Source of the DNA: an uncultured Gemmatimonadales bacterium | GTDB lineage: Bacteria; Gemmatimonadota; Gemmatimonadetes; Gemmatimonadales; GWC2-71-9 | NCBI GenBank assembly: GCA_963779755.1 | Contig: CAVZZO010000003.1 | Span: 1,184,001 to 1,248,000 of the forward strand | Direction: 5' to 3' | DNA length: 64,000 nucleotides | Part shown: piece by piece, positions 14,501 to 17,500 of the stretch | Numbering within the stretch: the first letter of the stretch is position 1 | Layout of the letters: the number at the start of each line of letters is the position of its first letter | Position numbers: made by a program

Positions 14501-17500
14501 ATCTGCTCGTCCAGCAGCACCACGCCGTACGGCTGGCGCTGCAACAGCACCAGGGCGTCGTCGCCGTGGGCGGTCTTTTCCACGGTGAAGCCGTGCTCTT
14601 CGAGAAAGAGGATGTGCGAGGTGAGGCTTTCGACCTCATCGTCCACCCAGAGGATGCTTTTGGGACGTGGCATGGCCGAAAGGTAGCCGGAGGAAGGTGC
14701 CGGTTCTAGAGACGGGGAAACGGGAAACGGGAACGGGAACGGATATCGGCCCGGACGCGGCGCGCGTCCGTTTCCCTGTTCCCGCTTCCCCGGTTCCCAG
14801 TACATTAGCCCCGTGCCCAACGCTGCCCCCTCGCCCCGCATCCTCCTCGTCCGCTTCAGCTCGATCGGCGACATCCTGCTCACCACCCCGCTGGTGCGGG
14901 CGCTGCGGGAGCGGTATCCGCCGGCGGAGATCACCTATCTCACCAAGGCGGCATTCGCCCCGCTGGTGCGGGACAATCCCCGGATCACCCGGGTCCTCAC
15001 GCTCGAGCCGGGCGCCCGGCTCCGCCCGCTGGCCGCAGAGCTGCGTGCGCTGCGGTGCACCCACCTGCTGGATCTCCACGGCAGCACCCGCAGCCGCGCC
15101 CTCCGGCTCCTGGTGCCCGGCCGGTGGCGCGGGTACCGCCACCACCGGGTGGCCCGGGAGATGCTGATCCGCTTCAAGCGCGACATCTACCCGCGGCAGC
15201 TGCCGGTGGCCGAACGCTACTTCGATGCCGCGGCGGGGCTGGATGTCCACCCCGACGGCCGCCCGCCGGAGTTGTACTGCGCCCCCGGCGTGGACGCAGC
15301 GGTGGGAGAGTGGCTGGAAGCCCGGAGACTGGCGGAAGGCCCCCTGCTGGTTTTCGCGCCCGGCGCGGCTCACGCCACCAAACAGTGGCCCGCAGCATCC
15401 TGGCGGACGCTCACCGCGTCGGTCCTCACGCAGGGGTGGAGGGTGGTCTTCGCCGGCGGCCCCGGGGACGCGACCCTCTGCCGCGAGCTGGCCGCCGCGG
15501 GAGGCCCCGCCACGGCCAGCGCGGCGGGCGAGTTCTCCCTGCAGCAGACCGGCGCGCTCCTGGCACGGGCACGCGCGCTGGTCTCGGGCGACACGGGAGT
15601 CATGCACCTGGGGACGGCGGTGGGCACGCCGGTGGTGGCGCTCTTCGGGCCGACGGTGCGGCAATTCGGCTTCTTCCCCTATACCCGTGCCGCGACGGTG
15701 CTGGACCTGCCGCTCGATTGCCGCCCCTGCACCGCCTGGGGTACCGAACGCTGCCCCCTGGGCCATCATCGCTGCCTGCGCGACCTGCTCCCGGCGGATG
15801 TGCTGGGCGCACTCCCCGACCCCGCTCATGGTTGACGGCGACGGCAGCGAACTGACCCTGCTGCGGCTGCTGTCCGAAGCGGTGCGCGGCCCCCGGCGCG
15901 AAGGCCTCTACGCGATCTGGCTCACCGTGCGCGCGGCCCGCGACCTGACGCTGGATCCTCCCCTGCCGCCCGCCGCGCTGGATCGCCGGCTGGCGGCGCT
16001 GCAGCACCGTCTGGCCACGCTCACCCTTTCCTCCGCCCTGCGCCGCTGCCTGCCGGCCGCCCTGGCCCAGCTGAAATCCGCCGACCGGACCGCCGCCGCA
16101 CTGGCGTTGAGCCAGCTGGTGGCACCGGTGCGCGAAACGCTCGGCGGCGAAGCGGCCGATGCGGTACAGCAGGCGGCGAAGGGGGCGCGTCGAACGGGCG
16201 GGGGGACAACCCGGTCGTCCTAGCTTTCTCGATCACTACAGGGGCCGAGAATACGAAGAGGGAAAGGGACGGGGGTCCCTTTCCCTCCTCAGCCGGCGCG
16301 GCGCCCGCCTTACGTCGAGTAGGGGTTTGTGGCCAGTGCAGCTGCCACCGCGCGTAAAACGACGAGCGTCCGACGTCCTGTGTTGCCCATCCCCCCACCG
16401 GGAGGAGTCAGTTCCCGTCGGGTACCATCCAGGAAGGGCAAGAGCGGGGCCACTCCGGGCTCTGGCCCTGCGCAACAGTTTGACACCCCTGCCCGAGCCG
16501 TTCCCCTGCTTACACTTGCACCCTGCCGGCCCCAAACGCGCTGCACCAAAACTCGACAACGAGCCGCGCGGCGCCCGGATATCCCCGGCCGTTCCCGACC
16601 CGCTATTTTGCAAACATGCCGTCCAGCGGTGGGCGCCGCCCATCTTCCGATTCCGCCGAAGCGATCGTCAGCCGGGTAGATGCCGCCCGAAGCGGCGCAA
16701 CCCCGACCGATACCGTCCCGTCCGGCTATCCGTCGCTCGATCGCGTGCTGGGGGGAGGATTCCGCCGCCAGGACCTGGTCATCCTGGCCGGCGACACCGG
16801 ATCGGGGAAGAGCGCGCTGGCGCTGGGCATCGCCATCCGGAGCGCACTGGCGGGAATGCCGGCAGTGTACTGCTCGGGCGAGATGACCGAAGAGCGCCTG
16901 ATGGAACGGGCCCTCGCCATGGAAGGACGCGCGCCGGTCGATGATCTCCGCAGCGGCCGCCTGGCCGATGCCACCCGCGCGGCACTCGGAGCCGCCGCGG
17001 TGCGGCTGCGGGATCTGCCGCTCATCTTCCGCCGGCTGTCCGGGGGGAGCTTCGAGGAGGTGGCCGCCTGCGCCGAAATCATCCCGCGCCGAGCGCTGGT
17101 GGTGGTCGATCCGCTGCAGATGGTGGAACCGCCTTCGCCGGGAGCCACGCTGGAGGAATCCGAGGCGCTGGCGATTCGCGCGCTCAAGGCGATGGCGCTG
17201 GAGCGCAACCTCACCGTCCTGGCGCTCTCCCGGCTGCAGCATTTTACCCGCCGGGAAGACCCCCGTCCCACCCTGGACGACCTCGGGGCTGCCGGGGCGG
17301 CCCGGCAACATGCGGATATCGTGCTGGCGCTCTATCGGGAGGAGATGTACCAGCCGGGCACGGGAGTGGAAGGGGCGACCGAGCTACTGCTGGCCAAGAA
17401 CCGGAACGGCCCCGGCGGGTTCGTGGATCTCTACTTCTACCGCCGCTGGCTCCGCTTCGAGGACATGCTCGACCCGGACCACTGAGCGGTCAGCGCGCCG

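What a model noticed while it worked through the whole genome (the two positions that open the first line are those of the whole stretch)
16616..17485. Second DnaB made of the motor domain only, beside yebC-ruvCAB
Besides the full dnaB (g01941) the genome has a 289-residue chromosomal paralogue that lacks the N-terminal primase-binding domain but keeps Walker A, the catalytic Glu, Walker B and the KNR arginine finger. It is conserved in Gemmatimonadales next to yebC-ruvC-ruvA-ruvB, suggesting a repair or branch-migration motor.
Evidence so far: Alignment with DnaB; orthologues at 51-62% identity, 285-294 aa where bounded, in 7 of 10 relatives of the order and none outside it; yebC and ruvC adjacent in 7 of 8 loci; DnaB_C near YebC in 548 of 1362 order genomes.
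(Added by a program. Inside this text positions count along the whole contig: contig position 1,184,001 is position 1 of the stretch shown here. "Call 12" and the like, gene names such as g00115 and contig names such as C1 are that model's own, and its searches are not shown. The text may have been shortened before it was handed on; [...] marks where a part breaks off. The agent that wrote the report below was given it as the finding of a first reader that could run no searches.)

Follow-up and report, generated by a model that had tools for sequence, protein, structure and literature searches.

The report
Headless DnaB paralogue, likely pseudo-helicase
Most bacteria of the order Gemmatimonadales carry a second, shortened copy of the replicative helicase DnaB that has lost its key DNA-gripping arginine and rewired its subunit contacts, so it is probably a dispensable ATP-binding ring rather than a DNA motor, and its place beside the ruv repair genes looks like old gene order.

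Summary
The gene is real. It encodes 289 aa: DnaB linker helix plus motor domain, with no N-terminal domain. It is under purifying selection, present in 114 of 150 order genomes, and not found outside the order in those searched. The scan noted this family before, in four other genomes.

The 'branch-migration motor' reading is weakly supported. The ssDNA-binding Arg (G. stearothermophilus R381) is Arg in 113 of 113 full DnaBs and basic in 0 of 141 paralogues. Two lineages lost the Walker A Lys while keeping the other conserved residues. A covarying Arg/Glu pair of DnaB (112 of 113) is reversed to Asp/Lys (122 of 141) at the modelled subunit interface, suggesting a ring that cannot mix with DnaB. 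A trimer model passed (0.57, best control 0.02; likeness to DnaB may explain it).

The ruv link looks like ancestral synteny: 19 of 20 genomes lacking the gene keep the block with the gene cleanly deleted. The upstream 131-aa gene persists unchanged without it, so it is no obligate partner.

Best reading (0.45): a self-assembling, ATP-binding, non-translocating DnaB derivative whose target is unknown. A divergent helicase stays possible (0.25).

The parts
16616..17485 (+). N-domain-less DnaB paralogue, 289 aa (P0001): linker helix + RecA-fold motor domain + conserved acidic C-terminal tail
   Evidence: AF2 pLDDT 93; Foldseek to E. coli DnaB 7t22, TMq 0.89, rmsd 3.4
16604..16609 (+). -10-like hexamer TATTTT, 6 nt before the ATG: candidate own leaderless promoter
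   Evidence: TAnnnT 4-8 nt before the ATG in 47 of 139 unique loci against 4 of 581 internal ATGs; transcription not shown
16649..16690 (+). Linker helix, residues 12-25, with family-specific D22; in the model it docks on the neighbour's helix 118-132 (R121, R132)
16790..16813 (+). Walker A, residues 59-66; D60 replaces the DnaB Arg; K65 in 130 of 141, lost in two lineages
16880..16882 (+). Catalytic Glu E89 (140 of 141)
17108..17110 (+). Walker B Asp D165 (139 of 141)
17231..17233 (+). R206 at the cis gamma-phosphate sensor position: Gln in 112 of 113 DnaB, Gln 107 / His 25 in the family, Arg in 1 of 141 (this copy)
   Evidence: equivalence to RadA H213 from my alignment, role from PMC11612176 section 11
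17279..17311 (+). Remodelled DNA-binding loop, residues 222-232: G224 at the R381 position, G227 kept, Lys/Arg230 at a position that is Glu in DnaB
17396..17404 (+). K261-N-R263 lysine/arginine finger (K and R each 140 of 141)
17447..17482 (+). Family-specific C-terminal motif, residues 278-289; D283 nearly invariant
15828..16223 (+). 131-aa basic six-helix protein of no known family; the usual upstream neighbour, but independent of the paralogue and not a detached DnaB N-domain
17490..17957 (-). 155-aa gene with a lipoprotein-like N-terminus (by eye, motif recalled) separating the paralogue from yebC
   Evidence: (no Pfam match)
18116..21286 (+). yebC (18116-18865), ruvC (18879-19385), ruvA (19382-19984), ruvB (20252-21286): context, not part of the unit

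Best explanation
An old DnaB derivative of the Gemmatimonadales ancestor that became a non-translocating, ATP-binding ring (a pseudo-helicase). SHOWN by sequence comparison: it has the linker helix, docking helix, ATP site and K/R finger; it lacks the primase-binding tier; it lacks the R381-type DNA contact; it is under purifying selection yet was lost repeatedly; two lineages have lost the Walker A Lys. MODELLED: copies join head to tail as in DnaB, with composite ATP sites. INFERRED: reversal of an Arg/Glu pair to Asp/Lys and new charged residues at the linker/docking helices make its interface incompatible with DnaB, so it forms its own ring beside the replicative one. INFERRED, weakest: the ring acts as a nucleotide-gated scaffold or switch, as RecA-fold non-motors such as KaiC do (analogy recalled), and binds a still unknown partner through its new invariant outer residues (R75, D271, D283, C-terminal tail). 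ATP turnover is slow or dispensable, and the job is accessory.
For: R381-equivalent: Arg in 20 of 20 order DnaBs and 93 of 93 other full-length DnaBs, Gly in 134 and Arg/Lys in 0 of 141 paralogues; its DNA contact is documented in passages of PMC6391071, PMC8421360 and PMC7318265. The second Arg contact (H. pylori R357; position 209 by my alignment) is basic in only 62 of 141 against 112 of 113, and the loop-1 Arg in 14 of 141 against 20 of 20. Ten sequences lack the Walker A Lys, from two independent changes; they keep 50 of 70 highly conserved positions, and the one testable pair has dN/dS 0.08. Positions 60/230: RE in 112 of 113 DnaBs, the one exception changing both; DK 122, DR 3, EK 1 of 141 paralogues. 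Trimer model: score 0.57, best of 3 controls 0.02; the mark was reached by 20 of 30 solved pairs and 1 of 23 single chains; runs agree in at least 75% of contacts; partner pLDDT at least 83; residues 61-62 touch 230, 261 and 263 across subunits. 9 of 15 family-specific charged residues lie in that interface. Median dN/dS 0.087 over 58 pairs. At least 9 presence changes on a neighbour-gene tree, 5 forced by starred branches.
Against: 131 of 141 sequences are not among the Lys-less ten, and 130 keep K65; E89, D165, K261 and R263 are near-invariant, as for an active ATPase. The two backbone DNA contacts (E382, G384 amides; PMC8421360 passage) could persist: G227 is kept in 135 of 141. The loop is less acidic than in DnaB (mean charge -0.9 against -3.0), R188 is basic in 122 of 141, and 11 of 141 have Arg/Lys at 226. 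RadA also lacks the R381 equivalent in my alignment and still moves on DNA. The trimer pass may come from likeness to solved DnaB rings; D60 itself is not among the named contact residues; the 9-of-15 enrichment (p 0.005) uses a baseline that includes buried residues and is overstated. The selection evidence in Lys-less members is one pair. No partner or target is identified.
Confidence: 0.45

Rival explanations
1. A divergent but active N-domain-less SF4 translocase (RadA-like) that unwinds forks or migrates branches, gripping DNA with backbone amides and shifted basic residues, as a redundant repair motor.
For: ATP-site residues and K/R finger are near-invariant; ring interface modelled. The N-domain is dispensable for helicase activity in H. 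pylori DnaB and phage Wildcat Gp80 (abstracts). DnaB-type rings can drive branch migration (PMC11612176 passage). Same-strand position upstream of yebC-ruvC in 140 of 151 loci. 12 of 14 genomes without a RadA match have it.
Against: No basic pore residue is invariant, and the RadA K216-equivalent position is basic in only 62 of 141. The Walker A Lys was lost twice with the gene retained. The RadA pattern is not significant: 12 of 14 against 102 of 136, Fisher p 0.52, kin not independent. This genome already has RuvAB, RecG, RadA and ComM. The ruv block is unchanged when the gene is deleted.
Confidence: 0.25
2. A regulatory subunit of the replisome: it enters DnaB rings as a brake or ring-opener, or soaks up the loader DciA.
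For: It keeps both faces of the DnaB interface and the linker/docking helices where DciA binds (PMC12214026 passages). DciA is in 148 of 151 order genomes. The data do not reject origin from the order's own DnaB (p-AU 0.79). Precedent: RadB, a RadA paralogue that binds and activates RadA (PMC5480776).
Against: The Arg/Glu to Asp/Lys reversal would put like charges together in either mixed interface (inference). The linker/docking surfaces are recoded with new invariant charged residues. The gene is never beside dnaB in the 20 dnaB loci examined, and DciA is present whether or not the paralogue is, so it is not a substitute loader.
Confidence: 0.13
3. A two-protein machine: the basic 131-aa upstream protein binds the acidic ring and supplies the nucleic-acid contact or replaces the N-domain (the reading of earlier scan notes).
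For: Found within 2 kb upstream in 146 of 151 loci (4 of the 5 misses have short flanks), with a gap of at most 150 nt in 141 of 146. Start within -8 to +12 nt of its stop, without a promoter signature, in 68 of 139 loci. Median pI 11.3 against 5.3. Both genes are restricted to the order.
Against: The small gene is in 137 of 139 order genomes, including all 20 examined that lack the paralogue. There it keeps its conserved residues and evolves no faster (rate ratio 1.98 against 2.24, p 0.15). 47 of 139 paralogues have their own leaderless-type promoter signature, and this genome separates the genes by 392 nt. No likeness to the DnaB N-domain (hhalign probability 0.06%).
Confidence: 0.13
4. A decaying duplicate, or an annotation or assembly artefact, without current function.
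For: Lost many times; one 67-codon remnant (L189); split or stop-containing copies in G048, G130, G101 and G071; faster evolution than DnaB.
Against: Median dN/dS 0.087, as low as yebC (0.10) and ruvC (0.13); 20 invariant columns among 66 diverse sequences; one clade across three families.
Confidence: 0.04

Closest known systems
Bacterial replicative helicase DnaB (TIGR00665; structures 4ESV, 7T22, 2Q6T)
   Same: Linker helix, docking helix, RecA-fold motor domain, Walker A/B, catalytic Glu, K/R finger, base-stacking Arg and Phe; 30-33% identity; TMq up to 0.89.
   Different: No N-terminal domain; 162 bits against a cut-off of 385; ARPxxGKT replaced by GDxGxGKS; R381 equivalent lost; Arg/Glu pair reversed; acidic conserved tail; dispensable.
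Bacterial RadA/Sms (TIGR00416; 5LKM, 8RXC)
   Same: DnaB-type motor without the DnaB N-domain; Gly-acidic Walker A start; KNR finger; no Arg at the R381 position.
   Different: No zinc finger and no Lon-like ring, which in RadA adds DNA contacts; 33.6 bits against 403; keeps DnaB-specific segments that RadA lacks; the genome has a separate radA.
N-domain-less SF4 helicases: engineered H. pylori DnaB and Wildcat Gp80 truncations, single-domain mycobacteriophage RecA-core proteins (PMC1888833, PMC4523182, abstracts); RSF1010 RepA (recalled)
   Same: Motor domain alone, natural or engineered.
   Different: H. pylori DnaB keeps a basic residue at the R381 position (K373). This family is chromosomal, vertically inherited and lacks it. 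Relationship to the phage proteins not tested.
Archaeal RadB and KaiC-like RecA-fold non-motor ATPases
   Same: A paralogue of an essential RecA-fold enzyme turned accessory or regulatory; RadB binds RadA (PMC5480776); KaiC shares the KxR trans-finger (PMC9599734 passage). That RadB lacks the N-domain is recalled.
   Different: Only weak profile matches over the Walker A region (32 bits or less); functional analogy, not membership.

Membership tests
DnaB replicative helicase | C-terminal RecA-fold motor domain of DnaB type | tested here: met
   PF03796 151.6 bits; Foldseek
DnaB replicative helicase | N-terminal primase-binding domain | tested here: not met
   upstream gene unrelated
DnaB replicative helicase | Equivalog score over the cut-off | tested here: not met
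   TIGR00665 162.2 against 385.25
DnaB replicative helicase | ARP[G/S]xGK[T/S] Walker A signature (PMC8421360) | tested here: not met
   Asp at the Arg position in 139 of 141
DnaB replicative helicase | ssDNA-binding R381/E382/G384 loop | tested here: not met
   R381: 0 of 141 basic; G384 kept in 135 of 141
DnaB replicative helicase | Catalytic Glu, Walker B Asp, trans K/R finger | tested here: met
   140, 139, 140 and 140 of 141
DnaB replicative helicase | Essential, present in every genome | tested here: not met
   not found in 36 of 150; clean deletion in 19 of 20 loci read
SF4 ring helicases (works like) | Head-to-tail oligomer with composite ATP sites | tested here: inconclusive
   trimer model 0.57 against best control 0.02; may reflect likeness to solved DnaB; hexamer not modelled
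SF4 ring helicases (works like) | ATP-driven 5'-3' translocation and unwinding | not testable with these tools
   needs biochemistry
RadA/Sms | Zinc finger and Lon-like C-terminal domain | tested here: not met
   289 aa fully accounted for by linker + motor domain; TIGR00416 33.6 bits
Split dnaB (detached N-domain upstream) | Upstream gene homologous to the DnaB N-domain by sequence profile | tested here: not met
   no PF00772 match among 65 members; hhalign probability 0.06%
Split dnaB (detached N-domain upstream) | Upstream protein has the DnaB N-domain fold | tested here: inconclusive
   DnaB N-domain not among the listed rows; best Z 7.3, generic helical bundles

The most novel reading that the evidence does not exclude
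A natural DnaB-derived pseudo-helicase: a chromosomal, order-wide ring that was insulated from its parent by a charge swap at the subunit interface, gave up DNA translocation, and in some lineages also ATP hydrolysis, to serve as a nucleotide-sensing scaffold. It would be a bacterial case of an SF4 motor turned into a non-motor, and a ready-made test of which interface pair sets DnaB ring specificity.
Probability: 0.4. Interest if true: 0.7.

Novelty: new variant of a known kind. Interest (0 to 1): 0.5.

Why it matters
DnaB is normally single-copy, essential and two-tiered. A conserved one-tier paralogue with a recoded interface and no DNA-gripping Arg is a natural experiment on how a ring motor escapes its parent complex and what is left when translocation is dropped. 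The covarying Arg/Glu pair gives a directly testable specificity switch for DnaB ring assembly. Public databases name these proteins 'replicative DNA helicase' or 'DnaB-like helicase C-terminal domain-containing protein', which probably misleads. The limit on interest: the gene is dispensable, confined to one little-studied order, no target is identified, and the scan has met the family before.

Tried and rejected
Truncation by mis-called start or broken gene: rejected.

Split dnaB with the 131-aa gene as N-domain: no sequence support. The fold searches gave no match at E 0.001 and a best Z of 7.3, which neither shows nor excludes a known fold. The Atlas look-up gave only sub-0.9 leads.

Substitute helicase loader: DciA is in 148 of 151 genomes. 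Replacement for RadA: no significant complementarity.

Recent foreign origin: GC3 0.83 against 0.86-0.93 for neighbours and dnaB; fixed locus across three families; one clade. Origin from the order's own DnaB: neither shown nor rejected (free trees place the long branch elsewhere; p-AU 0.79; those alignments carried extra N-terminal columns for the full-length rows).

Fused longer forms: none at E 1e-40 among 8000 candidates of 511-2000 aa, weak evidence by the tool's own note. RNA runs: none was listed; this says nothing on expression.

Spacer 16224-16615: no Rfam family, no consensus sigma-70 promoter or terminator, a sigma-54-type pattern no more frequent than chance, no conservation in relatives. 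A conserved operator upstream: none seen by eye, not tested formally.

Literature: no description of this family among 15 of 15 listings for Gemmatimonad + DnaB, 40 of 117 listings for DnaB paralogue terms and 6 of 6 for Gemmatimonadales + helicase; subscription papers are not covered. No paper was found stating the Walker A Arg to Glu contact. Binding of the 131-aa protein or of DnaB to the paralogue was not modelled.
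Full report
OBSERVATION. The ORF at 16616-17485 (+) encodes 289 aa. Pfam DnaB_C covers residues 34-283, and NCBIfam DnaB models score far under their cut-offs. 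The genome holds a full 464-aa dnaB next to radA on another contig; the two align over DnaB residues 180-456 at 33% identity. The only DnaB N-domain match in the genome lies in the full gene. AlphaFold2 gives a confident model (pLDDT 93) with a helix at 12-25 followed by the motor domain; its best structural matches are DnaB chains. In 104 of 151 orthologue loci an upstream in-frame stop leaves under 100 codons where DnaB has about 180, so the N-domain is truly absent. The 151 loci include some genomes fetched twice; they give 141 distinct proteins.

DISTRIBUTION. By my classification, 114 of 150 order genomes carry an orthologue: 50 of 69, 52 of 69 and 12 of 12 in the three families. None was found at orthologue level in 61 genomes of other orders with the single protein, nor in 87 with the profile, where the best score was 220 bits in full-length frames against 365-439 for intact orthologues (the samples overlap). 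The paralogues form one clade (SH-aLRT 100). An origin from the order's own DnaB is not rejected (p-AU 0.79) but is not shown. Median dN/dS is 0.087 over 58 pairs, against 0.10 for yebC and 0.13 for ruvC (simple counting method, a few pairs redundant). The tallies include the unpublished genomes G064, G075, G178, G220, G241 and G242 as single rows; no locus was taken from them and no claim depends on them.

NEIGHBOURHOOD. The usual order is a divergent PorX-like regulator, (a GT9 glycosyltransferase), a 131-aa gene, the paralogue, optional inserts, then yebC-ruvC-ruvA. yebC follows within 300 nt in only 42 of 151 loci; here an opposite-strand gene intervenes. I read the locus in 20 genomes lacking the paralogue (17 of the 36, 3). 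All 20 keep the 131-aa gene and yebC-ruvC-ruvA; 19 show no trace of the paralogue and one has a 67-codon remnant. On a tree of YebC+RuvC+RuvA the trait changes at least 9 times, 5 forced by starred branches (gene-less genomes were sampled on purpose). The gene is therefore dispensable, and the ruv neighbourhood is best read as the ancestral site. This genome also has RecG, RadA and ComM. RadA absence does not predict presence (12 of 14 against 102 of 136, p 0.52). DciA is in 148 of 151 genomes.

THE UPSTREAM GENE. It precedes the paralogue in 146 of 151 loci and is strongly basic, which invites a partner reading; four earlier scan notes on other genomes take that view. But it is present in 137 of 139 order genomes. 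In the 20 paralogue-less loci it keeps its conserved residues and its rate. 47 of 139 paralogue genes have a -10-like hexamer 4-8 nt before the ATG, against 4 of 581 internal ATGs, while 68 others start within -8 to +12 nt of the upstream stop. In this genome the two genes are 392 nt apart and the hexamer is present. It has no sequence likeness to the DnaB N-domain. It may still bind the paralogue, but its own function does not need it.

WHAT IS KEPT AND LOST. Against 20 order DnaBs and 93 other full-length DnaBs the family keeps E89, R98, D165, K261, R263 and F281 (138-140 of 141). It loses the Arg that contacts the DNA phosphate in DnaB (G. stearothermophilus R381, aligned; contact described in passages of PMC6391071, PMC8421360 and PMC7318265): Arg in 113 of 113, basic in 0 of 141. 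The second Arg contact (H. pylori R357; position 209 by my alignment) is basic in 62 of 141. Against a full loss of DNA binding: two of the three classical contacts are backbone amides, G227 is kept, the loop is less acidic than in DnaB, and RadA lacks this Arg too and uses K216 (PMC11612176 section 11; my alignment). A supplementary table of seven DNA-contact residues in V. cholerae DnaB (PMC12214026) could not be read and may bear on this. Ten sequences have no Walker A Lys: nine from genus g46 and one from G102, two independent changes. They keep 50 of the 70 positions that are at least 95% conserved in the others, including E89 and both fingers, and the one close pair has dN/dS 0.08. Nine of 17 hand-picked divergent library representatives also lack the Lys. 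This window's copy has Arg at the cis sensor position 206, alone among 141.

INTERFACE. Three copies with ATP and Mg were modelled: score 0.57, best of 3 controls 0.02; in calibration 20 of 30 solved pairs and 1 of 23 single chains reached the mark; runs agree in at least 75% of contacts; partner pLDDT at least 83. DnaB rings are solved, so the pass may show likeness only. The arrangement is that of DnaB: linker helix on docking helix (PMC12214026 passage), and residues 230, 261 and 263 next to the neighbour's P-loop residues 61-62. Positions 60 and 230 are Arg/Glu in 112 of 113 DnaBs, and the one exception changes both; in the paralogue they are Asp/Lys in 122, Asp/Arg in 3 (including this copy) and Glu/Lys in 1 of 141. 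I infer a reversed inter-subunit ion pair that would clash in mixed rings. D60 is not itself a named contact, and I found no paper stating this pair. Nine of 15 family-specific charged residues fall in the modelled interface; the p value of 0.005 is overstated by the baseline.

MECHANISM. Best reading (0.45): a self-assembling ATP-binding ring, insulated from DnaB, that does not translocate on DNA and acts as an accessory nucleotide-gated scaffold through new invariant surface residues; the partner is unknown. Rivals: an active divergent helicase or branch-migration motor (0.25), supported by the intact ATP site and by N-domain-less DnaBs that unwind DNA (abstracts of PMC1888833 and PMC4523182); a DnaB or DciA regulator by co-assembly (0.13), with RadB as precedent (PMC5480776, passages and Introduction); a machine with the 131-aa protein (0.13); a decaying duplicate (0.04).

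COMPARISON AND NOVELTY. It fails DnaB membership on the N-domain, the Walker A signature, the DNA loop, the score and essentiality, and fails RadA membership on domain content. It is a DnaB-derived subfamily, a new variant of a known kind. I found no description in the searches (40 of 117 listed), which cover open-access papers only; of these I saw listings, plus passages of 10.1101/2022.01.24.477630, PMC11596202 and PMC9599734, none on this family. The scan has noted the family on four other genomes. New here are the controlled counts of DNA-contact loss, the Lys-less lineages, the charge reversal, the clean repeated deletions, and the independence of the upstream gene.

VERDICT. Observation confirmed; interpretation partly supported; interest 0.5.

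Noticed in passing
window 15828-16223 (+): A basic six-helix protein of no known family is a near-universal, order-restricted core gene (137 of 139 order genomes, 0 of 61 outside) with near-invariant Gly and Arg residues. It is more widely kept than the DnaB paralogue and deserves its own study.
   Followed up: partly
window 16224-16615: A 392-nt spacer, among the three longest of 146 loci, with a 16-bp hairpin at 16255-16290.
   Followed up: partly
window 17490-17957 (-): A 155-aa gene with a lipoprotein-like start and no Pfam or NCBIfam match, conserved between the paralogue and yebC in many genomes of family f1.
   Followed up: no
G000 C1:2255325-2258236 (L002, L003): dnaB lies directly upstream of radA here, and the coordinates show the same pairing in many order genomes.
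   Followed up: no
P0008 (library protein, 573 aa): A tandem of two degenerate DnaB motor domains without an N-domain, lacking the R381 equivalent in both halves: possibly an independent pseudo-helicase. Single-member cluster, organism unknown.
   Followed up: no
L197 (G037 C3:565988-566845): A different short DnaB copy (344-aa open frame) away from this locus, which keeps the R381 equivalent but has Ser after the catalytic Glu and Asp for the trans Gln.
   Followed up: partly
L118-L131, L137: In part of family f2 a two-gene insert of about 2.6 kb, apparently two exported proteins, lies between the paralogue and yebC (read by eye, no family search).
   Followed up: no
G128, G140: Two single-contig genomes have no RadA match at E 1e-60, although RadA is near-universal; both keep the paralogue.
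   Followed up: no
window 10980-11240, 14700-14780, 16255-16290: Several intergenic stretches show short tandem low-complexity repeats (visible as repeated peptides in spurious ORFs); similar short repeats sit upstream of the paralogue in L011, L012, L017 and L019.
   Followed up: no
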